From Trypanosoma brucei (lineage: Eukaryota): DNA of 64,000 nt. The notes under the pieces were generated by a model that ran no database searches, was not told the origin of the DNA, and worked only from the letters and a program-made list of their open reading frames with translations. Made by a program: the position numbers and the translations under genes. Location of the stretch: positions 2,304,001 through 2,368,000 of the forward strand of contig CH464491.1 of NCBI GenBank assembly GCA_000002445.1, read 5' to 3'. Shown one piece after another: positions 8,573 through 42,636 of this stretch (position 1 is the first letter of the stretch; the number at the start of each line of letters is the position of its first letter).

Positions 8573-9196
8573 ATGAGCGTGGGCAAACCTATCACACGTG
8601 ACTCTTCCAAACAACTCTGGCGGCACATCAAATCAAGTGGGGAAGAGGAGTTGACTTACACGCATAATCCATATGATGACTCCCCAAATCGCCGTAAGGA
8701 ACGGGAAAAATCTCTAAATGTCTGCCGTCACTACGCGGAGGGTCGTTGCAATCGCGGTAGCACTTGCCGTTTCCACCACGAGACGCGGCACAACATCATC
8801 GTAACGCCACACGTCACTCCCAAATTCTCAAGCATTGCCCCCCTCAAGGGATTACCAACATCACCGCTTGGAGCATATTTGAGTTCACCTCCCAACAGAT
8901 CGTGTAATGGTTGCTTGCTTTCGCCTACGCATCACAACAACAGTATGAGTTACAACAGCAGCACGAACAGTTCCATGAAAATATTGAGTGAATCCTCCAG
9001 CACTATTCCTCACCTTCAGCTTCCTGAGAGCTTATCAACTCACTGCCGCTCTTCCACTTATGTTGCGTCAGGTATGAATGGGGAGCAACCGCCCCATGAC
9101 GTTTTGATATTGAGTTCGTCGCTTGGTTCTTTGAATGTTGGCGATCATGTTTCCAGAAATAACGGCGGCTTTTTGCTTACTGCGCAGCAAAGGTAA
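8573..9196 (+). CDS. CCCH-type zinc finger protein (C-x7-C-x5-C-x3-H), probable RNA-binding
   Basis: 207 aa ORF. It has a single 'CRHYAEGRCNRGSTCRFHH' CCCH finger followed by an S/N-rich low-complexity tail. Confidence 0.6.
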   Translation: MSVGKPITRDSSKQLWRHIKSSGEEELTYTHNPYDDSPNRRKEREKSLNVCRHYAEGRCNRGSTCRFHHETRHNIIVTPHVTPKFSSIAPLKGLPTSPLGAYLSSPPNRSCNGCLLSPTHHNNSMSYNSSTNSSMKILSESSSTIPHLQLPESLSTHCRSSTYVASGMNGEQPPHDVLILSSSLGSLNVGDHVSRNNGGFLLTAQQR

Positions 9197-10065
9197 GAGC
9201 AAAGAAAAAAGAAAGAGAGAGAGACACCTCATTTCTGCTTGCCTTTACCTTGCCCGTCCTCTGGCTCTTCTTTTCTACTTTTTATTTCCTCTCACTAATT
9301 CATACTGTTCTTTCTTTTGGTAACTTCTTTTGTTTGTTTTTCTCGTGCCTTTCTTTTTTACTTTTTTTTTTGTGCTTCATCCTACTAAGATTCTTTATAT
9401 ATATATAATTTGGCTCTCCAGCTGGTATGGTAACAACACTTTATGATGGGCCCTCCAAAGGGCAATAAGTTGTTTGTCCACAACGAACGAGTATCTTTCG
9501 CTTGTGTTTGTTTTTTTTTAAATTAAAAAAAAAAATTTCCCGTTTTGTTTTGAGCGAAACGTTTTCGGTTGCTTTGTTGGTTTCCACGTTCCTTCGTTCC
9601 AATACATCTATATATATACTTGTATATATTTGTATATATGATTTTTTTTTTGCGTGCGTTTGAAGAATAACAATAGCGGTACCAGCATTGATATTACTAT
9701 TGTTATTTCGCTTACAAGCATCTTCTCGTAACTGGCGCCGTAGCAAAAAAAAATCTTAAAAAAAAAGAGAGAAAGGAAGGAAGGAAAATAAAACGAAGGG
9801 AAAGGGAAAGGAAACGGTAGATTATATTTCAATATGTTTGCATTTCAAAAATGACAACATGTTTCTGGTTCCCTTTTCACCTTTTACTTTTCGTCATTTA
9901 TAAACCCATCGGTTCGTTTGCTTGTTCGTTTTTTTTATTTTTTTCCTCCCTTGTTGATGCCGTGACAGGCTGCGACAGTAGATATATATAAATTACAAAA
10001 GTTGGCCCCTTTCCTTTTTTGTAAAAAAAATACCTTTCACGGTAAAAAAACAAAAAATAAATTTT

Positions 10066-10150
10066 ATCTATATCTATCTATATCTATCTATATATACATA
10101 CATGTACATATATATTTTATATATTTTATATATTTATATATTTATATATG
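10066..10150. repeat. compound (TATC)n/(TA)n/(TATATTT)n simple-sequence block
   Basis: Direct read. Confidence 0.85.
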
Positions 10151-13100
10151 CTGATTTGTACCATAAAATACCAAAGTGAATTTACAAATGATAAACTGGC
10201 GTTTCTTCTCCCTTCTTATTTATTACTTTACTCTTTATTAAGAGGATATGCTCGTACGTGTCTGTCTCTGTGTGCTTGTGTGTGTTTATTTGTATGGCTG
10301 TGAGAAGTGAGGGGAAAAGGGAAGTTATGATTATGAAAATAATAATTATTATAATTGCAATTTTGGTGTGCATACAGTGAGTGGTTGGTTTATATTTGTT
10401 CATGTTTTTGATAACTTCTCTGGGTATCTCAATGTATTTTTATGTAGTTTGTTCGCCTCGGAAATACGAAAAGTGGAAGGGTTTGGTGAAAGTAAAGTAG
10501 AAAATAAAACTAAGAGGATATGTTTTAATTTTTGAAAAAAAAAAGCAACAGAAAGACAGAGAAATGGTAAATGAGGAAGTGAATCACTAGCGGAAATATA
10601 AAAGGCGAGTAAAAGAAAAACAACACCAACAACAACGACAAATAAGTCACTACAGCGGCGGGAAGCGCACGAGTCCACCCGCTAGACAACCGTTAGCCGG
10701 TTCACACGGCGTCATGTTGTAAAAAGAAGGTAAAAAAAAAACGGAAACGGTGGTAACGTTAAATATATTTAATAATTTTTTTATTTATTATGGTTGTACA
10801 GCTGAGTACGTCGGTTCACACTCGGATTGTTTTTTTTTCTTGTTTGATCTTTTCCACCGCTTGCGTTTATGATATGTTTATTCCTGTCGGATCGGACGGT
10901 ATTTTTAGATGTACTCTAAGATTATTTATGTGCCCTTTTACCCGTGTACTTCATGCCATCATGTCTTCTTTTTTTTTTTTTTTACTTCCCCTTTCAACTC
11001 GGTGTTATTTTTCCTGTTAGCCACACCGCTGGTGAATAAACCGGGACGAGGGGAGCAAGAGTGGTGTAACGGGGTAGTGAAATGAAAGGTTGTGGCAACT
11101 TCTCTTCTTCTTGTTGTTACTTTGTTTTGTTTTGTTTTGTTTTTTTTCCACCCCTCCTTCTTTACTTACGTTCGATGTCATTTTTGTTTGTTTGCCAACA
11201 CTTCACCCAGCTGCAGTGCCCATTTCCCCCCCTTTTTTTTTTGTCACCGTGTTTTGCATATTCTCTTCCTTATGTGGTTCCGCCTTTCATCCTCTTAATT
11301 TCAATAAATGAGAGGAAACAAAACGAATGACCCCTTGATAAACGAGGCATGTAAGGCCGCTGCTCCACGATTTCATGTTCCATTTCTCGCTTTTTGTTGC
11401 TACCAAAAAAATAAAATAAAATAAAAATTAAAATGTATTCAATTCGGATCACATATTTGCGTGTGTATTTATACTTATTTATATTTATTTATATGTATTT
11501 ATATGTATTTAAACATCTGGGGAGCGGAAGGAACGGGATTTTCTCTCTTTCTTTTCTTTTTCCCCCCCCCCCCCCACTCCCTCCGCTTTCCTTTTGTTAT
11601 GTGGAGATTGAGAAGAAAGGAGGCGTTGTGTTGCGCTCGCCTGTTCGCATGTGGAGAATTTCTTTCGGGACATGTATAAAAAACGAGTTACGGAAATATA
11701 ACAACTTCAGCACGTTACCACAAGTGAGGAAATGCGAGAATAAGAGAGAAGGAGAAGGAGGAGGAGAAGGAAGGATATTAATTATTGGAAAGGGGGGAAA
11801 ACATATATTGCTTGAAACACCCCATAAACTGGACAGAATCTGAAGGCACAACACGGCTTTTTTAAAAGTTTAGTTCTAGTTTTAGTTTTAGTTTTTTTGT
11901 GTGTGCTTTGTTCGTTATGTTTCGTGTTTGTGTTATATTTGAAGGGTGTGCCCCATTTCCATCGTGTTACCTTTTTCTTTTTTGGCTTATTTCTCGGCCA
12001 CAACACATCACATGAGATCGCTTCACCTCACTTTCCTCTTCTTCTCATTTCTCTCACTTTTTTTTAAAAAAAAGAAATCTGCGAAGTCTTTCATTACTTT
12101 GTTTCCTTTGCTGTTTTACTGTTGCTGTTTACTGTTACTGTTGTTGTTTTTCCGCACTTGTAACTCAATTCCCGAGTGTGTATGCGCCTTTTCTTGTTTT
12201 ACCCGTCAATTCGGCTTCATTTTTTTCCTTTTGCTATACGGGTTAATTGTGCATTCTTGTGTGGTTATACGCGCGACCAGAATAATGATAAGCGCGGCAT
12301 ATTACAAACAAACAAACAAAATTCTTCAACTCCTTAACACTTTTTTTTTTTGATGTTTCCTTTGCTTTCATCTCATTTAAATATTGCCCGCAATTTGTTT
12401 CCAGCGATAAATAAAAATAGGGAACGTAAAAGGAATGGCGGTCAACTGCCAATCAGGGAATTACAAAAGGCCGCCGTACCGTCGGATATATTCCCCTCTT
12501 TTTGTTTTTTTTCACTCCTTTTGTATATCTGTGGTTTGCGTTAAGTCATACTTTTGTTTTTGTTGTCGTTGTTTTTCGATGTTTCTTTTCTTCCTTTAAA
12601 AAAAAAAAAAATGTTGCTTAAAGCCTTAAAGTGTGTTACGTTTGTAATTAAAGCCTGCGGTCGCCTTTTTTTTTTTTTATGCTTTTGTCATGTTCTTCTA
12701 TATATCCTTTACCCGCTGGGATTCGTTCACACCCATTGTTATTTGTTCGCCTTCCGTTATGGTTTCCCTTCTGTTTTTTTTTCTGCTTTCAACTTCTTCA
12801 GTTTCATCTTTGTTTTGCGTTTTTTTTTTTCTGTGTCTTTAATGCATATTTATTTTTCTTGCGCCGTCGCCTCTTTTTTTCTTTTTCTTTTTTTCGGCTG
12901 GACGTTTTGGAACTCCTTATGTTCTTTCGTGTATATTTGTTGCTATGGGACGTTGGGCCGCTGAAACTTCATAACAGTCGAAGCAGAAAAGAAGAGAAAA
13001 AGGAAAAGAAAAAGGCAAACAAACGAAGATGAAAAAAAAAAAGAAAAGTGGTTGAAATAAAAAGAAAAAAAAGGGAGAACTAAAGGAAGTGCCTGTGACG

Positions 13101-14130
13101 AACCAAAAGGGGAAGAGAGGAATATGTGTTTTGTTTGTATATTCATATATTTACAAATTATCAAAACGTGTTAATTACTTTTCTTTCGCTTCTCGAGCGA
13201 CCGTGCTTTCTTCCTCGAGAAGAAAAATTTGTCGTTTTATGTTTTTTGTTTTTAAAATAAAAAATTTATGTATTTGGTTTTCCTTTTCTTTTCTTTTCTT
13301 TTTTTTTTTACTCTCCCTCTCTCTCTCTTTCTTCTTTTTTCAGAGGAGTGTGGAGGAAAAAGAAACAGAAAACAACGACAGCACATCTTTATAATGTTTT
13401 ATTTATGCATTCGTTTTTTGTTTCTTTTTTTTTCTTTTTTGCTTTGTTCAATTTCCGATGATACGAAATATTTTCCTCTTTTTGTCACCAACGACTGCAC
13501 TGACTGGATTCGGGTTGGGAATTGAGAGTTGGTTGGTGAAGAGGGAATGAGAAATTGCAGTCGCCGCTTTCTCTTTTTTTTTCTTTTTTCTTTTTATTAT
13601 TGTCGTTTGGTTTCGTCCATTTGCTTCTGCTCACTCGTGTTTGTGCCTTTATTTTCTCAGGTAACTGCCTCATATCACCGACTGCTGCGTAGAGGGGGGG
13701 AAAAAAAAACAGCAACAACAACAACTAAAGATGTGGAAATGATAAAGTTACGGCGTTTGTTTCTCCATTCCAAGCCGTAACGCAAATTTAAAACATGTGA
13801 GTGTGTAACGCGGTGAGGAGGAAGGAACCGAGGGAAAGAAGGTTCAAAAAAAAAAAAAAAGAAACAGAGGAAAGAAAAAGAAAGAAAAACAAGGAAGATT
13901 AAATTGAACTAATTAATTAAATTATAAAATAAACAAACAAATAAATTCAAATTCAAATAAATACCAGGAGCGGTAGAAGTGTAGAGTGGAAACGAAAGAC
14001 CTCATGGCGCGGTTGATAAAAATGTTGCTCGCGGTGCATTTGGTTTTCGCAGATGTTCTGCCGCGTCAACAAAAGAGATGAAAAACTATGAAATGATCAA
14101 CTCCAACATACCATACTGTTCAATTTCCTT

Positions 14131-14162
14131 TTTTACTTTTACTTTTACTTTTACTTTTACTT
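14131..14162. repeat. (TTTTAC)5 minisatellite
   Basis: Direct read. Confidence 0.9.
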
Positions 14163-14410
14163 GTTTTTTTCTTTTTTCACTTCTTTTTTTTTTATCAAAT
14201 CAATTTTTGAATATTTCCTGTTTTTTTTTTTTTACGTTACTGCGGTTGCTCATGTTTACAAACTCCAGAGGAGAAAAAATAAAATACAAAAAAAAAACAC
14301 CGCACGCACAAAAATTCACAAAAGCAACACAAACAACATGAAATTTCATTTAAAAAAAAAACAACTGTGATACACCCAAAGTGCGTTACATAACATGAAA
14401 TGATCTCTCT

Positions 14411-14462
14411 GTGTCTGTGTGTGTGTGTGTGTGTCTATGTGTATTTTAATATATATATATAT
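14411..14462. repeat. (GT)n followed by (AT)n microsatellites
   Basis: Direct read. Confidence 0.9.
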
Positions 14463-15387
14463 AAATATGTCAAAAATTATTGAAAACAAAAGAGAGATAT
14501 ATATTTTTTTAAAAATGTTTTTAGTTCAAAAAGATTTTTTTTAAAACACTTCAAAAGCTTACTAAATAAAATGATCGTAAAATAACTCACAAAAAAATTA
14601 CAATAAACAACAACCATTATAACAATTTCCACAAATCTCCTTTTCAATAAACAAAGTTAAGAATACATATATACATTCAAGCCAGGTTCACAAAAGGTAT
14701 TATAGGAAGAGAACAACAAACACCTACTACAGAAACAAATGTTAAAACAACAACAGTAACAAACATTAAAGAAAAATATCAGGTAGAAAAAATGGTTTTC
14801 CCTACATGCCACCACAAAAGCATAAGGAGGTCCACTACAATTATACTGTTGTTCCCAGATATACGGGTGTGCGCCTAAAGGGACACGTGACGTTCAAATT
14901 GGATATCCCTCCCATTGTTGACCGTATCTCACATTATTGGATATGTTGTAATCACTGACGGCTTGCTGTGAACTGCCACAGCTGTACACATGCACACACA
15001 TGTGATTCGGTTTTTCTTCTCCCAATATCCTTCCTTTCATATAATATAGGCAACCACACAATATTGGCACAACACCTGCTATCAAACTACCCTAACCCAA
15101 GTGTCTGTTTGTTTCTTTACGTCACTGGGAGGGTTTTAACAAGAACTAACATTGAGTCTGACTATGTGTGGGGGAGAAGAGAATGGTGGATTGGATCAGG
15201 CACATGTGTCCTACAGTGGCAGTGCGAGTGAGCAAAACATTGCGGAAATGATTGTAGACCCATCAGGTTCCCGTCAGCCCACAGCATTCCAACTCACACT
15301 CGATTGCAATAAGGCAGGAATGGGAAATGTGGATAAGGAACGTGTGGAAGCTATTATACGTAATGTAAGGGAAGGCTCACCTTTTTT

Positions 15388-16881
15388 ATGAATGAGCAGC
15401 GTTTGGCTGAGGGTCGAGAGAAGCAACTGCAAGAGCTGAAGCGGAAATCATCTCTCTTCACTCAGTTGTTGGGTGGTGAACGAAACGCTGCGCAGCGGAA
15501 ACAGTGGGAGCTGAAGGTTTCCAAAATAGAACAGGAGCTTGAGGCTACGCGTCGACTGGGAACTTATATCCATTTAGACATGGACATGTTTTATGCTGCT
15601 GTTGAAATCAAGAAGCATCCGGAGTACGCCGCCATTCCGCTTGCCATAGGCACAATAACGAGGTTGATAACAACAAATTATGTTGCGCGTGGACGTGGTA
15701 TTCGTCAAGGTATGCCAGGTTTCCTTGCTCTAAAAATCTGCCCGAATTTGCTCATTCTGCCTCCTGATTTCGATGCTTACAATGAGGAATCCAATACTGT
15801 GCGCCGTATTGTTGCTGAATACGACCCTAATTATATCAGCTTTGGTTTGGATGACTTTACTCTCGAAGTAAGTGCCTACATAGAGCGTTTTGAGGGAACC
15901 AAAACAGCCGAAGATGTGGCTTCTGAACTGCGTGTGCGTGTATTTGGTGAAACAAAGTTGACAGCAAGTGCTGGTATTGGACCCACTGCAGCACTTGCCA
16001 AGATTGCCAGTAATATTAATAAGCCGAATGGACAACATGATCTTAATCTTCACACCCGAGGGGATGTGATGACATACGTCAGGGATTTGGGTCTACGTTC
16101 TGTGCCTGGTGTTGGGAAGGTTACGGAAGCTCTGTTGAAGGGACTGGGTATCACCACTCTCTCAGATATTTACAATAGGCGTGTTGAACTTTGTTACATT
16201 TTGCACAATAATTTATTTCGCTTTTTGCTTGGAGCTTCCATTGGCATTATGCAATGGCCCGATGCAGCAACGGCAGCCAATACCGAGAATTGTGAGGGGG
16301 CTACTGGAGAGCAACGGAAGGCAATCAGTAGCGAGCGATCCATCACTACTCCACGAACCAAAGAAGGTATGCAGGAAATGCTTGATACCGTATTCAATGG
16401 TGCCTATGAAGAAATGCGGAAGAGTGAGCTAATGTGTAGACGCATTTCGTTAAGAATTAGGTGGGCCTCCTATCGTTATCAACAATACACAAAAAGTTTG
16501 ATACAATATTCAGATGACTCTGCAACCCTTCGCCGCGCAGTGGATGGTTTACTGTTACCGCATGCTGCAAAGTATTCAGAGATTTCACTGTTGGGGGTAC
16601 GTTTTCTTGACCTTATCTCTGCAAAAGACTTTCATATGAAAAGAAAGGGTGGTAACCAACTGTCTATTTCACAATTTATTCGCCCCAAGAAGCCGGGTGA
16701 GGTAACAGCAACCACCGGTATAAAAAGGGAGAGAACTACTGAACCGAAACAGGTTGTTGGAGTGAATCTATCATCAGATGACGAGGATGAGAATGATAGT
16801 GTTGGCTTGGCATCTAGCTCCACTATACTCGTTTCAACTGACAAAGGTACTGTTGAGAGGGAAGTTACCATAATTGAGTGA
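15388..16881 (+). CDS. DNA polymerase kappa (Y-family/DinB-like), array copy 1. The N-terminal 79 codons (15152-15391) lie in another frame because of a 1-nt loss, so this may be a pseudogene or a sequence error.
   Basis: The 497 aa ORF carries the Y-family catalytic motif 'HLDMDMFYAAVE', the 'SAGIGPTAALAKIAS' thumb motif and an HhH-like 'VPGVGKVTEALLKGLGI'. The upstream 79-aa ORF 'MSLTMCGG...GSPFL' is homologous to the N-terminus of the other copies but is frame-shifted at 15388. Confidence 0.6.
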   Translation: MNEQRLAEGREKQLQELKRKSSLFTQLLGGERNAAQRKQWELKVSKIEQELEATRRLGTYIHLDMDMFYAAVEIKKHPEYAAIPLAIGTITRLITTNYVARGRGIRQGMPGFLALKICPNLLILPPDFDAYNEESNTVRRIVAEYDPNYISFGLDDFTLEVSAYIERFEGTKTAEDVASELRVRVFGETKLTASAGIGPTAALAKIASNINKPNGQHDLNLHTRGDVMTYVRDLGLRSVPGVGKVTEALLKGLGITTLSDIYNRRVELCYILHNNLFRFLLGASIGIMQWPDAATAANTENCEGATGEQRKAISSERSITTPRTKEGMQEMLDTVFNGAYEEMRKSELMCRRISLRIRWASYRYQQYTKSLIQYSDDSATLRRAVDGLLLPHAAKYSEISLLGVRFLDLISAKDFHMKRKGGNQLSISQFIRPKKPGEVTATTGIKRERTTEPKQVVGVNLSSDDEDENDSVGLASSSTILVSTDKGTVEREVTIIE

Positions 16882-17287
16882 AATGAGGACATCAGTCAAT
16901 AGAAATTCCCACATTGCCCAATGGCATTCATATACAAATCACCTATACACAAGTACCCATAAACAAAACACATTATACACATGTATTGTTATACAGCTAT
17001 CATATGTTTTCATTTTTTGAAGTTATACTTTATATGGTTTATTACTTACATTGTTTTTTTCTTAAGCATGCTTGTGCTCATGTACAACCAGTGGAGCAAC
17101 TGGCTAATAACTCCTTCATCTTTGTGCGGACACCTTGGTGTATCCTATACTTTCTTTGAGGCCTTCTAATCCAGGTACTTTTTACACACTGTGACGCTAA
17201 TAAGTGTAGTTCTTTCTTTTGATTAATGTCTACTGCGTGCAGTGATGCGAAAAAGTCTGTACTTTATTTGTATGTTTATCTTCGGGT

Positions 17288-18181
17288 TTGATTTGTTTGG
17301 TTGCTGATGGCAGTGGAAGGCCTCTGCAATTATGTTTGTGTTTTTGTTTCTTTGTGTTGCTGTTTTTCTATATTTTTGGAGTTTGTTTTTTTTCTTCCTG
17401 TTTTTTTGCACTTCTTTTCTTTGCTTTCCTCTTGCAACATATTTTTTTATGTAATTGTATTTTTTTTGTGTGTGTAATGGTGGCGGATGTTGTTTTTGTT
17501 TTAGTAGTTGAAGTTTTTGTTTGTTGTTGGATTGAGAGCGACAACGGTAGTTTGCTGATGGTTTCGTTTATTTACAGCTGCGTCTCTAGTCGTCTGATGT
17601 TTGCTAGTGTGAAGAGGGCTGTTGGGCAATATTCATGTTTTCATGTGATTTGTTCCCCGCGCTTCCACAGTAACTATGTTGTGGGGGTCAACAAGGCGCC
17701 TAGTTGGATCGCGTCCCCGACAGAAAGGCGACGAAAGTTTGGTGAAGAGTGCCTTGCCGAAGGTAAAGAGCGGGATGGCGACATGGATGTAGAGCTTGTT
17801 CCCGTGGACGTGAAAAAGCTTGCTTTGCCCCTGCACCTCACGGACTCGATCCCGCAGGATATCGTCGATAATATCGTTGCGAGAGATAGAACACTTGTTT
17901 TCGCGCCAAACATGAAGATACTAGACCTGCACAGGCGGTTGTCCCGGATGAAGTATCGGATAAGCGTCCAGCCGCTTGGGAAGGTGCTGCACTTCCGATT
18001 CTTTCGGCTGTGTAAATTGTCCAGCGGTATGCCCGGAGATGTTACAGTGGAAACCTTCCGCAGCATCCAGCAGAAACTCTCCGAGTACACAAGATTTTTG
18101 GTGATGGATGAACGTTGGCCACTGGAGTTGTCATTAGAAATTACCCCCATTATTGAGCATCAACGGAAAGCAATGCTTTGA
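17288..18181 (+). other. partial duplicate (5' 0.9 kb) of the downstream Y-family paralog gene (=40702-41595), truncated by a scaffold gap
   Basis: The 297 aa ORF is identical except for 1 aa to the first 297 aa of the 40702-42636 ORF. The preceding intergenic region is of the array-terminal type. It ends at the N run beginning at 18186. Confidence 0.5.
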
Positions 18182-18185
18182 TGCC

Positions 18186-18286
18186 ANNNNNNNNNNNNNN
18201 NNNNNNNNNNNNNNNNNNNNNNNNNNNNNNNNNNNNNNNNNNNNNNNNNNNNNNNNNNNNNNNNNNNNNNNNNNNNNNNNNNNNNN
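18186..18286. other. assembly gap (N run)
   Basis: About 100 consecutive N. The sequence resumes in the middle of an array intergenic unit. Confidence 0.95.
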
Positions 18287-18899
18287 ACATGTATTGTTAT
18301 ACACCTATCATATGTTTTCATTTTTTGAAGTTATACTTTATATGGTTTATTACTTACATTGTTTTTTTCTTAAGCATGCTTGTGCTCATGTACAACCAGT
18401 GGAGCAACTGGCTAATAACTCCTTCATCTTTGTGCGGACACCTTGGTGTATCCTATACTTTCTTTGAGGCCTTCTAATCCAGGTACTTTTTACACACTGT
18501 GACGCTAATAAGTGTAGTTCTTTCTTTTGATTAATGTCTACTGCGTGCAGTGATGCGAAAAAGTGTGTACTTTATTTGTATGTTTATCTTCGGGTTTGAT
18601 TTGTTTGGTTGCTGATGACAGCGGAAGGTCTCTGCAATTATGAAAACTCATAAGGAGGTCCACTATAATTATACTGTTGTTCCCAGATATACGGGTGTGC
18701 GCCTAAAGGGACACGTGACGTTCAAATTGGATATCCCTCCCATTGTTGACCGTATCTCACATTATTGGATATGTTGTAATCACTGACGGCTTGCTGTGAA
18801 CTGCCACAGCTGTACACATGCACACACATGTGATTCGGTTTTTCTTCTCCTAATATCCTTCCTTTCATATAATATAGGCAACCACACAATATTGGCACA

Positions 18900-18979
18900 A
18901 CACCTGCTATCAAACTACCCTAACCCAAGTGTCTGTTTGTTTCTTTACGTCACTGGGAGGGTTTTAACAAGAACTAACA
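18900..18979 (+). promoter_or_regulatory. putative trans-splicing acceptor region (polypyrimidine tract plus AG) upstream of the pol kappa ATG. It is repeated in every array unit.
   Basis: 'ctgtttgtttctttacgtcactgggagggttttaacaagaactaacattgagtctgactATG' contains a pyrimidine tract followed by several AG dinucleotides 10-45 nt before the ATG. This is the typical kinetoplastid organisation. Nothing has been mapped experimentally. Confidence 0.3.
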
Positions 18980-20704
18980 TTGAGTCTGACTATGTGTGGG
19001 GGAGAAGAGAATGGTGGATTGGATCAGGCACATGTGTCCTACAGTGGCAGTGCGAGTGAGCAAAACATTGCGGAAATGATTGTAGACCCATCAGCTTCCC
19101 GTCAGCCCACAGCATTCCAACTCACACTCGATTGCAATAAGGCAGGAATGGGAAATGTGGATAAGGAGCGTGTCGCTGCAGTGATACATGAGATGTCTGC
19201 GGGATCAGGGTACCTTTGCAATCAGCAGCGTTTATCAAAAAGTCGAGAGAAGCAACTGCAAGAACTCAAGCGGAAATCATCTCTCTTCACTCAGTTGTTG
19301 GGTGGTGAACGAAACGCTGCGCGGCGGACGCAGTGGGAGGTGAAGGTTTCCAAAATAGAACAGGAGCTTGAGGCTACGCGTCGACTGGGAACTTATATCC
19401 ATTTAGACATGGACATGTTTTATGCTGCTGTTGAAATCAAGAAGCATCCGGAGTACGCCAACGTTCCGCTTGCAGTTGGAACTAAAACAATGCTAACAAC
19501 CGCAAATTATGTTGCTAGAGGTTGTGGTGTCCGTCCTGGTATGCCAGGTTATATCGGATTGAAGATTTGCCCGAATTTGCTCATTCTGCCTCCTGATTTC
19601 GATACTTACAATGAGGAATCCAATACTGTGCGCCGTATTGTTGCTGAATACGACCCTAATTACATCAGCTTTGGTTTGGATGAACTGACCCTTGAGGTAA
19701 GTGCCTACATAGAGCGTTTTGAGGGAACCAAAACAGCCGAAGATGTGGCTTCTGAACTGCGTGTGCGTGTATTTGGTGAAACAAAGTTGACAGCAAGTGC
19801 TGGTATTGGACCCACTGCAGCACTTGCCAAGATTGCCAGTAATATTAATAAGCCGAATGGACAACATGATCTTAATCTTCACACCCGAGGGGATGTGATG
19901 ACATACGTCAGGGATTTGGGTCTACGTTCTGTGCCTGGTATTGGGAAGGCTATGGAAGCTCTGTTGAAGGGACTGGGTATCACCACTCTCTCAGATATTT
20001 ACAATAGGCGTGTTGAACTTTGTTATATCTTTACCGAAAAAACATATCGCTTTTTGCTTGGAGCTTCCATTGGCATTATGCAATGGCCCGATGCGTGTAA
20101 TATACCGGGTGGCTCTGTCGATGATGGGACAGGTGTGGGAAGGAAGTCAGTTGGTAGTGAACGTACATTCAAAATATTGCAAAGCAAAGAGGAATTACAG
20201 GAAATTGTTGATTTTATTTTTAATTCTTCGTATGATGAACTAAAGAAACATGAGCTGATGTGTAGACAGGTTTCGTTAAGAATAAGGTGGGCAACCTATC
20301 GATCCCGGCAGTATACTATGAATTTAGCCCAACATTCAGATGACTCTGCAACCCTTCGCCGCGCAGTGGATGGTTTACTGTTACCGCATGCTGCAAAGTA
20401 CTCAGATATGTCGTTACTGGGGATGCGTCTGTTAGACCTTATCTTTGCAAAAGACTTTCATATGAAAAGAAAGGGTGGTAACCAACTGTCTATTTCACAA
20501 TTTATTCGCCCCAAGAAGCCGGGTGAGGTAACAGCAACCACCGGTATAAAAAGGGAGAGGACTACTGAACCGAAACAGGTTGTGGAAATAATAATATCAT
20601 CAGATGACGAGGATGAGAATGATAGTGTTGGCTTGGCATCTAGCTCCACTATACTCGTTTCAACTGGCAAAGGTACTGTTGAGAGGGAAGTTACCATAAT
20701 TTAG
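18980..20704 (+). CDS. DNA polymerase kappa (Y-family), array copy 2
   Basis: 574 aa ORF with DMDMFYAAVE, SAGIGPTAALAKIAS and an HhH motif. It carries variant cassettes 'KTMLTTANYVARGCGVRPGMPGYIGL' and 'IFTEKTYRF...TFKILQSKEELQEI'. Confidence 0.85.
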   Translation: MSLTMCGGEENGGLDQAHVSYSGSASEQNIAEMIVDPSASRQPTAFQLTLDCNKAGMGNVDKERVAAVIHEMSAGSGYLCNQQRLSKSREKQLQELKRKSSLFTQLLGGERNAARRTQWEVKVSKIEQELEATRRLGTYIHLDMDMFYAAVEIKKHPEYANVPLAVGTKTMLTTANYVARGCGVRPGMPGYIGLKICPNLLILPPDFDTYNEESNTVRRIVAEYDPNYISFGLDELTLEVSAYIERFEGTKTAEDVASELRVRVFGETKLTASAGIGPTAALAKIASNINKPNGQHDLNLHTRGDVMTYVRDLGLRSVPGIGKAMEALLKGLGITTLSDIYNRRVELCYIFTEKTYRFLLGASIGIMQWPDACNIPGGSVDDGTGVGRKSVGSERTFKILQSKEELQEIVDFIFNSSYDELKKHELMCRQVSLRIRWATYRSRQYTMNLAQHSDDSATLRRAVDGLLLPHAAKYSDMSLLGMRLLDLIFAKDFHMKRKGGNQLSISQFIRPKKPGEVTATTGIKRERTTEPKQVVEIIISSDDEDENDSVGLASSSTILVSTGKGTVEREVTII

Positions 20705-21497
20705 TGAAGTGAGGACATCAGTCAATGGAAACGCTCACATTGCCCAATGGCATTCATATACAAATCACCTATACACAAGTACCCATAAACAAAACACATT
20801 ATACACATGTATTGTTATACAGCTATCATATGTTTTCATTTTTTGAAGTTATACTTTATATGGTTTATTACTTACATTGTTTTTTTCTTAAGCATGCTTG
20901 TGCTCATGTACAACCAGTGGAGCAACTGGCTAATAACTCCTTCATCTTTGTGCGGACACCTTGGTGTATCCTATACTTTCTTTGAGGCCTTCTAATCCAG
21001 GTACTTTTTACACACTGTGACGCTAATAAGTGTAGTTCTTTCTTTTGATTAATGTCTACTGCGTGCAGTGATGTGAAAAAGTCTGTACTTTATTTGTATG
21101 TTTATCTTCGGGTTTGATTTGTTTGGTTGCTGATGACAGCGGAAGGCCTCTGCAATTATGAAAACTCATAAGGAGGTCCACTATAATTATACTGTTGTTC
21201 CCAGATATACGGGTGTGCGCCTAAAGGGACACGTGACGTTCAAATTGGATATCCCTCCCATTGTTGACCGTATCTCACATTATTGGATATGTTGTAATCA
21301 CTGACGGCTTGCTGTGAACTGCCACAGCTGTACACATGCACACACATGTGATTCGGTTTTTCTTCTCCCAATATCCTTCCTTTCATATAATATAGGCAAC
21401 CACACAATATTGGCACAACACCTGCTATCAAACTACCCTAACCCAAGTGTCTGTTTGTTTCTTTACGTCATTGGGAGGGTTTTAACAAGAACTAACA

Positions 21498-28267: not shown

Positions 28268-28957
28268 AATGAGGACATCAGTCAATAGAAATTCCCTTTA
28301 TTCTAGCGGCATATTTATAGATATTTATTTCGGTTTTCCCATTCGGCAGAGAGAAATACAACATGTATTAAGTATTGGGGAGCAACTGGCTAATAACTCC
28401 TTCATCTTTGTGCGGACACCTTGGTGTATCCTATACTTTCTTTGAGGCCTTCTAATCCAGGTACTTTTTACACACTGTGACGCTAATAAGTGTAGTTCTT
28501 TCTTTTGATTAATGTCTACTGCGTGCAGTGATGCGAAAAAGTGTGTACTTTATTTGTATGTTTATCTTCGGGTTTGATTTGTTTGGTTGCTGATGACAGC
28601 GGAAGGCCTCTGCAATTATGAAAACTCATAAGGAGGTCCACTATAATTATACTGTTGTTCCCAGATATACGGGTGTGCGCCTAAAGGGACAGGTGACGTT
28701 CAAATTGGATATCCCTCCCATTGTTGACCGTATCTCACATTATTGGATATGTTGTAATCACTGACGGCTTGCTGTGAACTGCCACAGCTGTACACATGCA
28801 CACACATGTGATTCGGTTTTTCTTCTCCCAATATCCTTCCTTTCATATAATATAGGCAACCACACAATATTGGCACAACACCTGCTATCAAACTACCCTA
28901 ACCCAAGTGTCTGTTTGTTTCTTTACGTCATTGGGAGGGTTTTAACAAGAACTAACA

Positions 28958-37801: not shown

Positions 37802-38594
37802 TGAAATGAGGACATCAGTCAATAGAAATTCCCACATTGCCCAATGGCATTCATATACAAATCACCTATACACAAGTACCCATAAACAAAACACATTATA
37901 CACATGTATTGTTATACACCTATCATATGTTTTCATTTTTTGAAGTTATACTTTATATGGTTTATTACTTACATTGTTTTTTTCTTAAGCATGCTTGTGC
38001 TCATGTACAACCAGTGGAGCAACTGGCTAATAACTCCTTCATCTTTGTGCGGACACCTTGGTGTATCCTATACTTTCTTTGAGGCCTTCTAATCCAGGTA
38101 CTTTTTACACACTGTGACGCTAATAAGTGTAGTTCTTTCTTTTGATTAATGTCTACTGCGTGCAGTGATGCGAAAAAGTCTGTACTTTATTTGTATGTTT
38201 ATCTTCGGGTTTGATTTGTTTGGTTGCTGATGACAGTGGAAGGTCTCTGCAATTATGAAAACTCATAAGGAGGTCCACTATAATTATACTGTTGTTCCCA
38301 GATATACGGGTGTGCGCCTAAAGGGACACGTGACGTTCAAATTGGATATCCCTCCCATTGTTGACCGTATCTCACATTATTGGATATGTTGTAATCACTG
38401 ACGGCTTGCTGTGAACTGCCACAGCTGTACACATGCACACACATGTGATTCGGTTTTTCTTCTCCCAATATCCTTCCTTTCATATAATATAGGCAACCAC
38501 ACAATATTGGCACAACACCTGCTATCAAACTACCCTAACCCAAGTGTCTGTTTGTTTCTTTACGTCACTGGGAGGGTTTTAACAAGAACTAACA

Positions 38595-40322
38595 TTGAGT
38601 CTGACTATGTGTGGGGGAGAAGAGAATGGTGGATTGGATCAGGCACATGTGTCCTACAGTGGCAGTGCGAGTGAGCAAAACATTGCGGAAATGATTGTAG
38701 ACCCATCAGGTTCCCGTCAGCCCACAGCATTCCAACTCACACTCGATTGCAATAAGGCAGGAATGGGAAATGTGGATAAGGAACGTGTGGAAGCTATTAT
38801 ACGTAATGTATCTGAGGGTTCTTCCTTTTTGATGAATGAACAACGTTTGGCTGAGGGTCGAGAGAAGCAACTGCAAGAGCTCAAACGGAAATCATCTCTC
38901 TTCACTCAGTTGTTGGGTGGTGAACGAAACGCTGCGCAGCGGAAACAGTGGGAGCTGAAGGTTTCCAAAATAGAACAGGAGCTTGAGGCTACGCGTCGAC
39001 TGGGAACTTATATCCATTTAGACATGGACATGTTTTATGCTGCTGTTGAAATCAAGAAGCATCCGGAGTACGCCGCCATTCCGCTTGCCATAGGCACCAT
39101 GACGAGGCTACAAACAGCAAATTACATTGCGCGTGGACGTGGTGTTCGATGTAGCATGCCAGGTTTCCTTGCTCTAAAAATCTGCCCGAATTTGCTCATT
39201 CTGCCTCCTGATTTCGATGCTTACAACGAGGAATCCAATACTGTGCGCCGTATTGTTGCTGAATACGACCCTAATTATATCAGCTTTGGTTTGGATGAAC
39301 TGACCCTTGAGGTAAGTGCCTACATAGAGCGTTTTGAGGGAACCAAAACAGCCGAAGATGTGGCTTCTGAACTGCGTGTGCGTGTATTTGGTGATACAAA
39401 GTTGACAGCAAGTGCTGGTATTGGACCCACTGCAGCACTTGCCAAGATTGCCAGTAATATTAATAAGCCGAATGGACAACATGATCTTAATCTTCATACC
39501 CGAGAGGATGTGATGACATACGTCAGGGATTTGGGTCTACGTTCTGTGCCTGGTGTTGGGAAGGTTACGGAAGCTCTGTTGAAGGGACTGGGTATCACCA
39601 CTCTCTCAGATATTTACAATAGGCGTGTTGAACTTTGTTACATTTTGCACAATAATTTATTTCGCTTTTTGCTTGGAGCTTCCATTGGCATTGTGCAATG
39701 GCCCGATGCAGCAACGGCAGCCAATACCGAGAATTGTGAGGGGGCTACTGGAGGGCAACGGAAGGCAATCAGTAGCGAGCGATCCATCACTACTCCACGA
39801 ACCAAAGAAGGTATGCAGGAAATGGTTGATACCGTATTCAATGGTGCCTATGAAGAAATGCGGAAGAGTGAGCTGATGTGTAGACGCATTTCGTTAAGAA
39901 TAAGGTGGGCCTCCTATCGTTATCAACAATACACAAAAAGTTTGATACAATATTCAGATGACTCTGCAACCCTTCGCCGCGCAGTGGATGGTTTACTGTT
40001 ACCGCATGCTGCAAAGTATTCAGAGATTTCACTGTTGGGGGTACGTTTTCTTGACCTTATCTTTGCAAAAGACTTTCATATGAAAAGAAAGGGTGGTAAC
40101 CAACTGTCTATTTCACAATTTATTCGCCCCAAGAAGCCGGGTGAGGTAACAGCAACCACCGGTATAAAAAGGGAGAGGACTACTGAACCGAAACAGGTTG
40201 TGGAAATAATAATATCATCAGACGACGAGGATGAGAATGATAGTGTTGGCTTGGCATCTAGCTCCACTATACTCGTTTCAACTGACAAAGGTACTGTTGA
40301 GAGGGAAGTTACCATAATTTAG
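38595..40322 (+). CDS. DNA polymerase kappa (Y-family), array copy 10 (terminal)
   Basis: 575 aa ORF. It has 'RGVRCSMPGF' and, like copy 1, 'YSEISLLGVRFLDL'. The intergenic region after it has a 30-bp deletion relative to other units. Confidence 0.85.
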   Translation: MSLTMCGGEENGGLDQAHVSYSGSASEQNIAEMIVDPSGSRQPTAFQLTLDCNKAGMGNVDKERVEAIIRNVSEGSSFLMNEQRLAEGREKQLQELKRKSSLFTQLLGGERNAAQRKQWELKVSKIEQELEATRRLGTYIHLDMDMFYAAVEIKKHPEYAAIPLAIGTMTRLQTANYIARGRGVRCSMPGFLALKICPNLLILPPDFDAYNEESNTVRRIVAEYDPNYISFGLDELTLEVSAYIERFEGTKTAEDVASELRVRVFGDTKLTASAGIGPTAALAKIASNINKPNGQHDLNLHTREDVMTYVRDLGLRSVPGVGKVTEALLKGLGITTLSDIYNRRVELCYILHNNLFRFLLGASIGIVQWPDAATAANTENCEGATGGQRKAISSERSITTPRTKEGMQEMVDTVFNGAYEEMRKSELMCRRISLRIRWASYRYQQYTKSLIQYSDDSATLRRAVDGLLLPHAAKYSEISLLGVRFLDLIFAKDFHMKRKGGNQLSISQFIRPKKPGEVTATTGIKRERTTEPKQVVEIIISSDDEDENDSVGLASSSTILVSTDKGTVEREVTII

Positions 40323-40701
40323 TGAAATGAGGACATCAGTCAATAGAAATTCCCACATTGCCCAATGGCATTCATATACAAATCACCTATACACAAGTAT
40401 TGTTATACAGCTATCATATGTTTTCATTTTTTGAAGTTATACTTTATATGGTTTATTACTTACATTGTTTTTTTCTTAAGCATGCTTGTGCTCATGTACA
40501 ACCAGTGGAGCAACTGGCTAATAACTCCTTCATCTTTGTGCGGACACCTTGGTGTATCCTATACTTTCTTTGAGGCCTTCTAATCCAGGTACTTTTTACA
40601 CACTGTGACGCTAATAAGTGTAGTTCTTTCTTTTGATTAATGTCTACTGCGTGCAGTGATGCGAAAAAGTCTGTACTTTATTTGTATGTTTATCTTCGGG
40701 T

Positions 40702-42636
40702 TTGATTTGTTTGGTTGCTGATGGCAGTGGAAGGCCTCTGCAATTATGTTTGTGTTTTTGTTTCTCTGTGTTGCTGTTTTTCTATATTTTTGGAGTTTGT
40801 TTTTTTTCTTCCTGTTTTTTTGCACTTCTTTTCTTTGCTTTCCTCTTGCAACATATTTTTTTATGTAATTGTATTTTTTTTGTGTGTGTAATGGTGGCGG
40901 ATGTTGTTTTTGTTTTAGTAGTTGAAGTTTTTGTTTGTTGTTGGATTGAGAGCGACAACGGTAGTTTGCTGATGGTTTCGTTTATTTACAGCTGCGTCTC
41001 TAGTCGTCTGATGTTTGCTAGTGTGAAGAGGGCTGTTGGGCAATATTCATGTTTTCATGTGATTTGTTCCCCGCGCTTCCACAGTAACTATGTTGTGGGG
41101 GTCAACAAGGCGCCTAGTTGGATCGCGTCCCCGACAGAAAGGCGACGAAAGTTTGGTGAAGAGTGCCTTGCCGAAGGTAAAGAGCGGGATGGCGACATGG
41201 ATGTAGAGCTTGTTCCCGTGGACGTGAAAAAGCTTGCTTTGCCCCTGCACCTCACGGACTCGATCCCGCAGGATATCGTCGATAATATCGTTGCGAGAGA
41301 TAGAACACTTGTTTTCGCGCCAAACATGAAGATACTAGACCTGCACAGGCGGTTGTCCCGGATGAAGTATCGGATAAGCGTCCAGCCGCTTGGGAAGGTG
41401 CTGCACTTCCGATTCTTTCGGCTGTGTAAATTGTCCAGCGGTATGCCCGGAGATGTTACAGTGGAAACCTTCCGCAGCATCCAGCAGAAACTCTCCGAGT
41501 ACACAAGATTTTTGGTGATGGATGAACGTTGGCCACTGGAGTTGTCATTAGAAATTACCCCCATTATTGAGCATCAACGGAAGCAAATGCTTGAATGCCA
41601 AGGGGAATGCCGCGTTTCAACGGCGGAGGATGTAATGGAGTTACTTAGTAGTGTTTTTTCCGCTGAGCTCCGCGTGGGGGCGTGGTGCGGTTTGTCTTGC
41701 ACACCAGTCTTGGCGAAGATGGCGTGCGACGAGTGTCACAGGAAACACAAACTATGCCGACAGGACTATTCTCGCGGTGGGGTAGTAGGTACCGTGCGTT
41801 ACGATATTAGGTCGCACAAGGAGGCAAAGGAGTTTGTGCAGAACCTTTCGTTGGGCGATATTCCTGTTGTTGGGAAGCCACAGGCGAGGCTCCTGGAAGA
41901 TGTTTATGGCATTACCAAATGCGGCGGGATTGCGGATCAGGAGGTAAGACTGGGTTTCAGCCTGTCGCAGTCGACGATGGAGTTCTTCCTCTCTGTAGCG
42001 TATGGCACCGTTCGACTCCCTAGCGAGGCCACCACCACGCTTTTGCGCAAACCGCCGAGATGTAAGGCCGCCCATATACGGCGCGAGTCACAGTTTGGCC
42101 GTGTGGTATCAGACGAACAGTTTATCAACACCGTAATGTCCGTCTTCGACAACGTGTACACAGACCTTGTGGAACATGATTTCGTGACGGGACGGGTCAT
42201 GATCGAGACACGCCGCACACTCCCGCGCACTCATTGGGTGGTTGAAGAGAGCGAAGACATTGCGCCCCGAACGAACGACCGCGATTTGCTGCGGGAGGTA
42301 ACGATCCGCCTCGCAAGACGTTTTGCCCCACGGCGAACCGAAGAGCTGCGAGACATTTACAGCGTTGGTGTTCATTTCGGAGACGTGCGCTCGTGGTCAG
42401 AGAATGAGAGGTTGCAGAAGAAAGCTGTTGCAGTGAGCGAAGGGGGCAGCCCCACGACAGGCGGAAGGAAGGATGGCGTTATCGGTGCGGCGAACGGTGT
42501 CCCGGCGCCTACAGTGCCCAAGGGTAGCTCTTCCGCTGGGGCACGACAGCAGAAAAGAAAGAGAACGGGCACCGGTCCAAAGCCGTTGAGGAAAGGCAAG
42601 ATGGGGGCGGCATCGGGAATTCGCATCGTCACATAA
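40702..42636 (+). CDS. divergent Y-family DNA polymerase-like protein (distant pol kappa paralog). Catalytic motifs appear degenerate.
   Basis: The 644 aa ORF aligns by eye to the pol kappa copies: 'TAEDVMELLSSVFSAELRVGAWCGLSCTPVLAKMAC' vs 'TAEDVASELRVRVFGETKLTASAGIGPTAALAKIAS'; 'LSLGDIPVVGKPQARLLEDVYGITKCGGIAD' vs 'LGLRSVPGVGKVTEALLKGLGITTLSDI'; 'SGMPGD' vs 'PGMPGY'; 'LELSLEITPIIE' vs 'LDELTLEVSAYIE'. The first 100 codons are pyrimidine-rich leader that partly lies inside the array repeat. The true start is probably a downstream Met, for example MFASVKR near 41015. Confidence 0.65.
   Translation: MICLVADGSGRPLQLCLCFCFSVLLFFYIFGVCFFSSCFFALLFFAFLLQHIFLCNCIFFVCVMVADVVFVLVVEVFVCCWIESDNGSLLMVSFIYSCVSSRLMFASVKRAVGQYSCFHVICSPRFHSNYVVGVNKAPSWIASPTERRRKFGEECLAEGKERDGDMDVELVPVDVKKLALPLHLTDSIPQDIVDNIVARDRTLVFAPNMKILDLHRRLSRMKYRISVQPLGKVLHFRFFRLCKLSSGMPGDVTVETFRSIQQKLSEYTRFLVMDERWPLELSLEITPIIEHQRKQMLECQGECRVSTAEDVMELLSSVFSAELRVGAWCGLSCTPVLAKMACDECHRKHKLCRQDYSRGGVVGTVRYDIRSHKEAKEFVQNLSLGDIPVVGKPQARLLEDVYGITKCGGIADQEVRLGFSLSQSTMEFFLSVAYGTVRLPSEATTTLLRKPPRCKAAHIRRESQFGRVVSDEQFINTVMSVFDNVYTDLVEHDFVTGRVMIETRRTLPRTHWVVEESEDIAPRTNDRDLLREVTIRLARRFAPRRTEELRDIYSVGVHFGDVRSWSENERLQKKAVAVSEGGSPTTGGRKDGVIGAANGVPAPTVPKGSSSAGARQQKRKRTGTGPKPLRKGKMGAASGIRIVT

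What the first reader, a model, noticed from the sequence alone, without database searches (positions are those of the whole stretch)
16200..18286. Array-terminal unit plus 5' end of the flanking paralog is duplicated next to copy 1 and abuts a scaffold gap
After copy 1 the sequence continues with the array-terminal type of intergenic spacer and then 0.86 kb that is identical except for 1 SNP to the start of the 40702 gene (17288-18181 = 40702-41595). It stops at a 100-N gap and resumes mid-spacer. Copies 1 and 10 also uniquely share the 'YSEISLLGVRFLDL' cassette. Either the end of the array exists twice, as a segmental duplication or an alternative haplotype, or a contig representing the array end was misplaced at its start.
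Basis: seen in the sequence. Interest (0 to 1): 0.5.

Follow-up and report, generated by a model that had tools for sequence, protein, structure and literature searches.

The report
Assembly artefact at polymerase-kappa array gap
The extra "array end plus start of the next gene" beside copy 1 of the Trypanosoma brucei TREU927 DNA polymerase kappa array is most likely the other chromosome homologue's array end stitched onto copy 1 at a contig break, not a real duplication, so it is ordinary but leaves a bogus annotated gene.

Summary
The window is T. b. brucei TREU927 chromosome 11, covering the published 10-unit DNA polymerase kappa tandem array. After unit 1 the sequence leaves the repeat at the junction used at the true array end (17334/17335 = 40749/40750). 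It then copies the 5' flank and the first 196 codons of the downstream divergent Y-family paralog, up to a 100-N gap.

Over 832 bp the copy differs from the real gene by 1 SNP. This is allelic-level divergence: published heterozygosity for the shotgun-sequenced chromosomes, which include chromosome 11, is 0.22%. The last 20 bases hold 4-5 private errors. These errors create the stop codon of the annotated 234-aa "gene" XP_828923.

The 3' part of "copy 1" (16429 onward) is orthologous to the last array copy of T. b. gambiense and T. equiperdum. Its 5' part is orthologous to their first copy. Both of those assemblies go straight from copy 1 to copy 2.

Best reading (about 0.6): reads from the other homologue's array end were joined to copy 1 at a contig end. 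Rivals:
- A real homologue with a single first/last recombinant copy (about 0.2).
- A true internal duplication (under 0.1).

Interest is low.

The parts
14821..16401 (+). 5' part of array unit 1, of first-copy type: 5' UTR and the N-terminal and catalytic part of pol kappa
   Evidence: Contiguous with the unique upstream flank. Nearest to 927 copy 6 and to the first copies of T. b. gambiense and T. equiperdum. 16381 C is shared only with copy 6.
15388..16881 (+). Copy-1 pol kappa ORF, 497 aa, truncated at the N terminus by a private 1-bp deletion at about 15388
   Evidence: IMS, IMS_HHH and IMS_C domains. The other copies are 570-572 aa from their ATG. The deletion is private to this copy among 17 units compared.
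16429..16881 (+). 3' coding part of unit 1, of array-terminal type: the YSEISLLGVRFLDL cassette at 16573 and the VVGVNLSSDD block at 16753-16782
   Evidence: Differs by 0-3 positions per 100 bp from the last copies of T. b. gambiense (L001) and T. equiperdum (L005). The block at 16758-16768 is shared only with those terminal copies.
16882..17334 (+). Spacer after unit 1, a terminal-type allele that keeps the 30-bp repeat unit 16953-16982
   Evidence: Identical to the copy-10 spacer from 16983 to 17334, including 17310 G. The 30 bp are absent from copy 10 but present in the gambiense and equiperdum terminal spacers. A 29-bp tandem repeat of 1.9 copies lies at 16929-16985.
17335..18166 (+). Copy of the 5' flank and the first ~190 codons of the downstream divergent Y-family paralog (D'); the real ATG equivalent is at 17597
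   Evidence: Matches 40750-41584 with one SNP, 17352 T versus C. At that site the 927 gene and the gambiense gene agree against the fragment.
18167..18186 (+). Error-rich end of the left contig, resembling a read tail, which creates a false TGA at 18179-18181
   Evidence: 4-5 private differences in 20 bases, against 1 in the preceding 832. The protein ends ...EHQRKAML* where the real gene reads ...EHQRKQMLECQGE.
17477..18181 (+). Annotated 234-aa 'hypothetical protein, conserved' (EAN79811 / XP_828923), an annotation artefact
   Evidence: The translation is identical to P0013.
18187..18286 (.). 100-N gap between two assembly contigs
18287..18642 (+). Start of the right contig: the tail of an internal-type spacer leading into unit 2
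   Evidence: 98.6% identical to 16979-17334 with 5 mismatches, then continues into the unit start at 18649.
38264..40749 (+). Unit 10, the assembled terminal unit (the other allele of the array end)
   Evidence: Its 5' and middle parts are orthologous to the gambiense and equiperdum last copies. Its 3' end is derived: an internal-type block at the 16758-equivalent position and the 30-bp deletion.
40750..42636 (+). The real downstream flank and the divergent Y-family paralog D (CDS from 40891 or 41011 to 42636)
   Evidence: P0014, 581 aa, is identical to the translation of 40891-42633. Weak IMS domain hit. 24% identity to pol kappa over 254 aa, E 2e-11. Orthologs occur across Trypanosoma.

Best explanation
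The arrangement [quoted passage not shown] does not exist on one DNA molecule. It comes from how the Sanger-era TREU927 chromosome 11 reference was assembled.

Proposed sequence of events (inferred):
1. Chromosome 11 was shotgun-sequenced from both homologues and collapsed into one mosaic sequence.
2. The two homologues differ at the 3' end of the last pol kappa unit. The differences are an 8-base block, a 30-bp repeat-unit indel and the stop codon.
3. Reads from one homologue's array end therefore could not merge with assembled copy 10.
4. Those reads overlapped almost perfectly with the open end of the left contig, inside copy 1, and were joined there. The switch of sequence type lies between 16381 and 16429.
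5. They extended that contig through the terminal spacer into the neighbouring gene for about one read length past the last distinguishing site (16982 to 18186, about 1.2 kb).
6. The contig then stopped in a low-quality read tail. Reads lying wholly in the neighbouring gene were merged with the real gene at 40750 onward.
7. A 100-N gap was then placed before the next contig, which starts mid-spacer.

Shown by the data: the sequence relationships, the error-rich tail, and the absence of the arrangement from sister assemblies.
For: 1. **Identity of the window.** It is TREU927 chromosome 11. ORFs 17477-18178 and 40891-42633 translate exactly to XP_828923 and XP_828934.
2. **Both homologues were sequenced.** Jackson et al. 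[quoted passage not shown] The fragment differs from the real gene by 1 SNP in 832 bp, against 1.8 expected at that pi. The subspecies difference over the same stretch is about 10 sites. Any duplication is therefore very recent, or the two are alleles.
3. **Private differences look like errors.** At every private difference in the fragment, the 927 gene and the gambiense gene agree against it. Apart from the one SNP, these differences all sit in the last 20 bases (P about 4e-8). The flanks of the second gap are also low quality, with Ns at 31887 and 31934 and private bases at 31975-6 and 32078.
4. **Copy 1 is a first/last chimera.** 15617-16401 matches the first-copy orthologs and copy 6. 16429-17334 matches the terminal copies of gambiense and equiperdum, including a block found nowhere else in 927.
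5. **Sister assemblies lack it.** T. b. gambiense DAL972 was assembled independently with Phrap from capillary reads. It and T. equiperdum IVM-t1 run from copy 1 directly into copy 2 and have no fragment there.
6. **Removing the segment restores the expected layout.** Deleting 17335-18286 lets 16979-17334 overlap 18287-18642 at 98.6%, which gives the gambiense/equiperdum layout.
7. **No novel junction.** The left junction is the native array-end junction and the right side is a gap.
[quoted passage not shown] 927 haplotypes were collapsed into a mosaic, and repeats were collapsed.
Against: - No read-level data (coverage, mate pairs, traces) could be examined, so the false join itself is inferred.
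- Copy 1 has only two private sequence events. It is not a generally low-quality consensus.
- Natural gene-conversion mosaics are common in this array. A real first/last recombinant copy would look the same.
- The equiperdum assembly is low-coverage PacBio plus MiSeq, with chromosomes constructed using 927 as the reference. Neither sister assembly is TREU927, so a strain-specific structure is not excluded.
- About 1.2 kb from the last distinguishing site to the contig end is at the upper limit for one capillary read.
Confidence: 0.6

Rival explanations
1. The left contig is a correct reading of one real TREU927 homologue. On that homologue the array has contracted, by unequal crossover between the first and last units, to a single recombinant copy: upstream flank - first/last chimera - downstream gene. 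The reference then wrongly places this homologue's sequence in series with the other homologue's multi-copy array.
For: - Copy 1 switches cleanly from first-copy type to terminal type within 48 bp, between 16381 and 16429. It then continues without interruption into the downstream gene. This is what a first-by-last unequal crossover would produce.
- Copy 1 has only two private events and is not obviously a poor consensus.
- Array copy number varies between subspecies, 10 versus 7 (coordinates).
- The allelic-level divergence of the fragment fits this reading equally well.
Against: - Two internal-type bases (16431 A, 16458 T) are interleaved within the terminal-type tract. A second interleaved micro-mosaic with a frameshift lies at 15362-15400. 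These are more expected from a mixed-read consensus than from one clean crossover.
- If this homologue were read correctly, the contig would be expected to continue through the whole downstream gene. It instead stops in an error-rich tail one read length past the last distinguishing site.
- No other strain examined has fewer than 7 units.
Confidence: 0.2
2. A genuine internal (in-cis) segmental duplication exists in TREU927. The terminal unit, its spacer and at least 0.85 kb of the next gene were copied to the start of the array. The right-hand end of the copy lies inside the gap.
For: - The sequence as deposited shows this order.
- The segment is not a byte-for-byte repeat of the copy-10 end: it differs by the 30-bp indel, the 8-base block and the stop codon. 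The same reads were therefore not simply used twice.
Against: - Absent from DAL972 and from T. equiperdum.
- No novel junction is visible.
- Divergence from the real gene is 0.12% in the fragment, but there are many differences in the 250 bp just upstream. This is uneven for one duplication event.
- The contig end is a single-read-like error tail rather than well-covered sequence running into a new junction.
- The extra unit end is more ancestral-looking than copy 10. A recent copy of copy 10 would not look like that.
Confidence: 0.08
3. Copy 1 really has the terminal-type 3' end and spacer in cis, through gene conversion between the first and last units. Only the part beyond 17334 is artefactual: one or two reads from the ordinary array end were attached through the 350-bp spacer stretch that is identical in copies 1 and 10.
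For: - 16983-17334 is identical between the copy-1 and copy-10 spacers, so a join there would leave no trace.
- The fragment is nearly identical to the assembled downstream gene.
Against: - This requires the ancestral terminal block (16758-16768) and the 30-bp unit to have been moved to the first copy and then lost from the terminal copy of the same chromosome. That is less parsimonious than two alleles of the terminal copy.
- 17310 G is otherwise confined to copy 10 within 927.
Confidence: 0.08

Closest known systems
T. brucei DNA polymerase kappa tandem array (array Tb112, Tb11.01.0080 etc.; Jackson 2007, Jackson et al. 2010)
   Same: Same locus. It lies on chromosome 11, with 10 units assembled in T. 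b. brucei 927 and 7 in T. b. gambiense. It shows mosaic sequence variation and gene conversion among units. The units encode IMS / IMS_HHH / IMS_C Y-family polymerases.
   Different: Within the passages retrieved by keyword searches of the two Jackson papers, nothing describes the fragment after copy 1 or the first/last chimeric nature of copy 1. Those papers treat the assembled copies as given, while warning that the assembled copy number is arbitrary.
Haplotype-split or repeat-induced chimeric contig ends in collapsed diploid assemblies (as discussed for TREU927 and Lister 427 by Cosentino et al. 2021)
   Same: A diploid genome was collapsed to one mosaic, and divergent allelic stretches assembled separately. 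The result is artefactual frameshifts and split or false genes. Here there is a false 234-aa gene and possibly the copy-1 frameshift.
   Different: Here the allelic segment was not left in an unplaced 'bin' contig. It was joined in series at the opposite end of a tandem array, which mimics a segmental duplication.
Unequal crossover contraction of tandem gene arrays
   Same: A first/last recombinant unit flanked by both unique flanks is the expected product. Copy 1 plus its flanks has this form.
   Different: There is no evidence that such a molecule exists in TREU927. All other assemblies examined have 7 or more units.

Membership tests
Y-family (pol kappa-like) DNA polymerase tandem array of T. 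brucei chromosome 11 | Units encode proteins with IMS (impB/mucB/samB), IMS_HHH and IMS_C domains | tested here: met
   Copy 1: IMS E 3e-41, IMS_C 1.9e-10, HHH 7.9e-07. Copy 10 gives similar values.
Y-family (pol kappa-like) DNA polymerase tandem array of T. brucei chromosome 11 | Head-to-tail repeats of ~2.5 kb, 10 assembled units in TREU927, with gene products identical to the deposited 927 proteins | tested here: met
   (ten units). (exact matches to XP_828923 and XP_828934). (published 10 versus 7 copies).
Assembly artefact: allelic or repeat-induced chimeric contig end | The duplicated stretch abuts an assembly gap and has no novel junction of its own | tested here: met
   The left junction equals the native array-end junction. 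The right side is the 100-N gap.
Assembly artefact: allelic or repeat-induced chimeric contig end | Divergence from the true locus is at allelic level, and sequencing-error-like differences pile up at the contig end | tested here: met
   There is 1 SNP in 832 bp against pi = 0.0022, and 4-5 private differences in the last 20 bases.
Assembly artefact: allelic or repeat-induced chimeric contig end | The structure is absent from independent assemblies of close relatives | tested here: met
   In DAL972 (L002) and T. equiperdum IVM-t1 (L003), copy 1 is followed directly by copy 2. Caveats: these are different strains, and the equiperdum chromosomes were constructed using 927 as the reference.
Assembly artefact: allelic or repeat-induced chimeric contig end | Read-level proof: a coverage drop, discordant mate pairs, and no spanning long reads | not testable with these tools
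   No TREU927 reads or long-read assembly were reachable. The 927 record is not indexed for contig look-ups.
True in-cis segmental duplication | Two definable junctions, at least one of them novel | tested here: not met
   Only the native junction is present (17334/17335 = 40749/40750). The other end lies in the gap.
True in-cis segmental duplication | Single molecules that span the duplicate and both neighbours | not testable with these tools
   Requires TREU927 long reads or clone mate pairs.
Array contraction by unequal crossover (single recombinant unit on one homologue) | A recombinant unit with first-copy 5' and last-copy 3' parts, flanked by both unique flanks | tested here: inconclusive
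   The sequence has this form. The same form is expected from a false join. Interleaved bases at 16431 and 16458 and the truncated contig end argue weakly against it.

The most novel reading that the evidence does not exclude
One TREU927 chromosome 11 homologue really carries a pol kappa array contracted to a single first/last recombinant, frameshifted copy, while the other carries 9 or more units. This would be an extreme allelic copy-number heterozygosity. The reference conceals it by concatenating the two haplotypes.
Probability: 0.2. Interest if true: 0.3.

Novelty: not a real feature. Interest (0 to 1): 0.12.

Why it matters
The biological significance is small, but the finding is practically useful.

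**Consequences for users of the TREU927 reference**
- The reference carries a false 234-aa "conserved hypothetical" gene (XP_828923). Its stop codon is made by read-tail errors.
- It also carries a probably chimeric and frameshifted first pol kappa copy.
- With two gaps inside the array, the copy number of 10 is arbitrary.
- Analyses of pol kappa copy number, gene conversion or positive selection that take these units at face value inherit the artefacts. So do read-mapping and RNA-seq quantification over the downstream gene, whose 5' end is present twice in the reference.

**One real biological point**
- The terminal unit has a distinctive C-terminal cassette conserved across T. brucei subspecies.
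- TREU927 probably carries two alleles of that terminal unit. One has a short conversion tract to the internal type and a 30-bp repeat-unit deletion.

Tried and rejected
**Exact-protein look-ups in public assemblies**
- Look-ups of copy 10, copy 1, the 541-aa version of the downstream gene and the 234-aa fragment returned nothing. The 927 record itself is not indexed, so no alternative TREU927 assembly could be examined.

**Homolog search**
- A search with the C-terminal 199 aa of copy 1 returned a single hit at E <= 1e-30. It gave no further contexts.

**Logan contigs**
- Contigs ERR7929163 and ERR7929164, which carry the downstream gene, are about 99.5% identical to the window. They therefore come from another strain. 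They start only 50-100 bp upstream of the gene, so they say nothing about the junction.

**Other scans**
- An Rfam scan of the window found nothing.

**Ideas rejected**
- *An ancient relic of the array's founding duplication.* The fragment is 99.9% identical to the 927 gene, while the 927 and gambiense genes differ at about 10 sites over the same stretch.
- *The same reads assembled twice.* The 3' end of copy 1 differs from copy 10 by structured, biologically plausible variants that recur in other subspecies.
- *Copy 1 is a generally error-ridden consensus.* It has only two private events among 17 units compared.
Full report
**What the window is.** The translations of 17477-18178 and 40891-42633 are identical to two deposited proteins of Trypanosoma brucei brucei TREU927: XP_828923 (234 aa) and XP_828934 (581 aa). 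The window is therefore TREU927 chromosome 11. Self-comparison shows ten head-to-tail units of about 2.52 kb, starting at 14821, 18649, 21167, 23688, 26209, 28627, 31148, 33225, 35743 and 38264. Each unit encodes a Y-family polymerase with IMS, IMS_HHH and IMS_C domains. This is the published "DNA polymerase kappa" array (Tb112, Tb11.01.0080), reported as 10 copies in T. b. brucei and 7 in T. b. gambiense. The array contains two 100-N gaps, at 18187-18286 and 31978-32077.

**Checking the observation.**
- Unit 1 leaves the repeat at 17334/17335. This is the same point at which unit 10 leaves it (40749/40750).
- 16958-18186 matches 40373-41600 at 99.2%.
- After the gap, the sequence resumes at a position equivalent to 16979, in mid-spacer.
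- The YSEISLLGVRFLDL cassette occurs only in units 1 and 10.
- The gene downstream of the array (here called D) is a distant paralog of pol kappa. It has 24% identity over 254 aa (E 2e-11), a weak IMS hit, and orthologs across Trypanosoma.

1. The "1 SNP" claim holds only for 17335-18166 (17352 T versus C). The last 20 bases carry 4-5 further differences, and these create the TGA that ends the ORF. The annotated protein ends ...EHQRKAML*, where the real gene reads ...EHQRKQMLECQGE.
2. The spacer after unit 1 keeps 30 bp (16953-16982) that the unit-10 spacer lacks. These 30 bp are one unit of a 29-30-bp tandem repeat.
3. Unit 1 carries a block at 16758-16768 (VVGVNLSSDD) that unit 10 lacks.

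**Anatomy of "copy 1".** I aligned the 927 units with the first and last units of T. b. gambiense DAL972 (L002, L001) and T. equiperdum IVM-t1 (L003, L005).
- From about 15617 to 16401, 927 copy 1 is closest to 927 copy 6 and to the first copies of the other two taxa.
- From 16429 to 17334 it is nearly identical to their last copies. This includes the 16758-16768 block, the 30-bp unit and a TGA stop, none of which is in 927 copy 10.
- 927 copy 10 is orthologous to those last copies over its 5' and middle parts. Its 3' end is derived: it has the internal-type block and the 30-bp deletion.
- Copy 1 is therefore a first/last chimera, with the switch between 16381 and 16429.
- Its terminal-type part is a second version of the array end that looks more ancestral than copy 10. 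It is not a copy of copy 10.

**The fragment of the next gene.**
- Over 832 bp the fragment differs from the 927 gene by one SNP. The 927 and gambiense genes differ at about 10 sites in the same stretch. The two 927 versions therefore separated very recently, or they are alleles.
- Jackson et al. [quoted passage not shown] That predicts about 1.8 differences in 832 bp.
- At every private difference in the fragment, the 927 gene and the gambiense gene agree against it.
- All the private differences except the one SNP lie in the last 20 bases of the contig (P about 4e-8 for such clustering). This is the signature of a low-quality capillary read tail.
- The flanks of the second gap look the same: single Ns at 31887 and 31934, and private bases at 31975-6 and 32078.
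- The contig end (18186) lies about 1.2 kb past the last site that distinguishes this version from copy 10 (16982). That is roughly one long read.

**Related assemblies.**
- In DAL972, the upstream flank aligns with the window from 9000 to 17334, and the next sequence is unit 2. No fragment of the downstream gene is present there. DAL972 was assembled independently with Phrap from its own 8x capillary reads.
- T. equiperdum IVM-t1 shows the same layout. That assembly is a hybrid of low-coverage PacBio and MiSeq, with chromosomes constructed using 927 as the reference, so it counts for less.
- Both have about 7 units (coordinates).
- If 17335-18286 is removed from the window, 16979-17334 overlaps 18287-18642 at 98.6%. 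This reproduces the layout of the other taxa.

**Most likely explanation (about 0.6).**
- Reads from the other homologue's array end could not merge with copy 10, because of the block, indel and stop differences.
- They overlapped almost perfectly with the open end of the left contig inside copy 1, and were joined to it.
- The contig then ran through the terminal spacer into the next gene for one read length and stopped.
- Reads lying wholly in that gene were merged with the real gene.
- Two further features fit a mixed-read consensus, though patchy gene conversion could also give them. One is the pair of interleaved internal-type bases at 16431 and 16458. The other is a second interleaved micro-mosaic with a private 1-bp deletion at 15362-15400.
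- Published remarks support the general picture. The assembled number of repeat units is arbitrary, and the 927 reference is a collapsed mosaic with collapsed repeats.

**Rivals.**
- *A real homologue with one first/last recombinant unit, made by unequal crossover (about 0.2).* It predicts the same sequence. The truncated, error-rich contig end, the interleaved bases, and the fact that all other assemblies have 7 or more units make it less likely.
- *A true in-cis duplication (about 0.08).* It has no novel junction and is absent from relatives. Its divergence is uneven, and it looks more ancestral than its supposed source.
- *A false join within the identical spacer stretch 16983-17334, with a real terminal-type copy 1 (about 0.08).* This is less parsimonious given the orthology pattern.
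- None of these can be settled without TREU927 reads.

**Comparison with what is known, and verdict.** The locus is a known array. The phenomenon belongs to the known class of haplotype- or repeat-induced artefacts in collapsed diploid Sanger assemblies. The feature as described, a duplicated array end next to copy 1, is most likely not a real genomic feature. Its practical consequences are:
- a false annotated gene (XP_828923);
- a probably chimeric and frameshifted first pol kappa copy;
- a 5' end of the downstream gene that is present twice in the reference;
- an unreliable copy number for the array.

The one real biological point is that TREU927 probably carries two alleles of a distinctive, subspecies-conserved terminal unit. 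Interest is low.

Noticed in passing
window 15362-15400 (1-bp deletion at about 15388): Copy 1 has a private 1-bp deletion inside a 40-bp stretch. That stretch interleaves two sequence types seen in the other units. The deletion shifts the frame, leaving a 497-aa ORF instead of about 571 aa. The first copies of T. b. gambiense and T. equiperdum are intact. It could be a real pseudogenising mutation or a consensus error.
   Followed up: partly
window 31887-32078: A second 100-N gap lies inside unit 7, flanked by single Ns (31887, 31934) and private bases. At least ~450 bp of the unit is missing, so the count of 10 units is not reliable.
   Followed up: partly
window 28297-28378 (spacer after unit 5): In the unit-5 spacer, about 182 bp of the usual spacer (equivalent to 16911-17092) is replaced by an unrelated ~82 bp. 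The same variant spacer appears in the third-from-last unit of T. equiperdum (L005 2287-4704), so it is an old, shared spacer type.
   Followed up: partly
window 18649-21166 (unit 2): Unit 2 is by far the most divergent unit, with 67 private alignment columns against 0-10 for the others. The differences are concentrated at 15340-15400 and 16217-16500 equivalents. A similar type occurs in the T. equiperdum third-from-last unit.
   Followed up: no
window 14821-14841 versus L002 16302-16325 and L003 16274-16297: The boundary between the unique upstream flank and the first unit differs between strains. 927 has the internal-unit sequence CATAAGGAGGTCCACTA. T. b. gambiense and T. equiperdum have CATGTTCCGCATATCCACTA or CATGTTCCGCATGTCCACTA. 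In 927 the repeat homology therefore extends about 14 bp further upstream, probably through conversion across the array edge.
   Followed up: partly
window 16929-16985 and 40373-40399: The 30-bp difference between the copy-1 and copy-10 spacers is a copy-number change of a 29-30-bp tandem repeat (1.9 copies versus about 0.9). It is flanked by TATACACA[A/T]GTA.
   Followed up: yes
window 9197-14820: A 5.6-kb AT-rich stretch (about 25-34% GC where sampled, 14000-14899) lies between the CCCH zinc-finger gene and the array. It has no ORF of 150 aa or more and contains several low-complexity A/T repeats. It is conserved in DAL972 and T. equiperdum. There were no Rfam hits.
   Followed up: partly
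window 17674-18150 (-) and 41088-41564 (-): Identical 158-aa antisense ORFs lie inside the fragment and inside the real downstream gene. These are a trivial by-product of the duplication and are not evidence of a gene.
   Followed up: no
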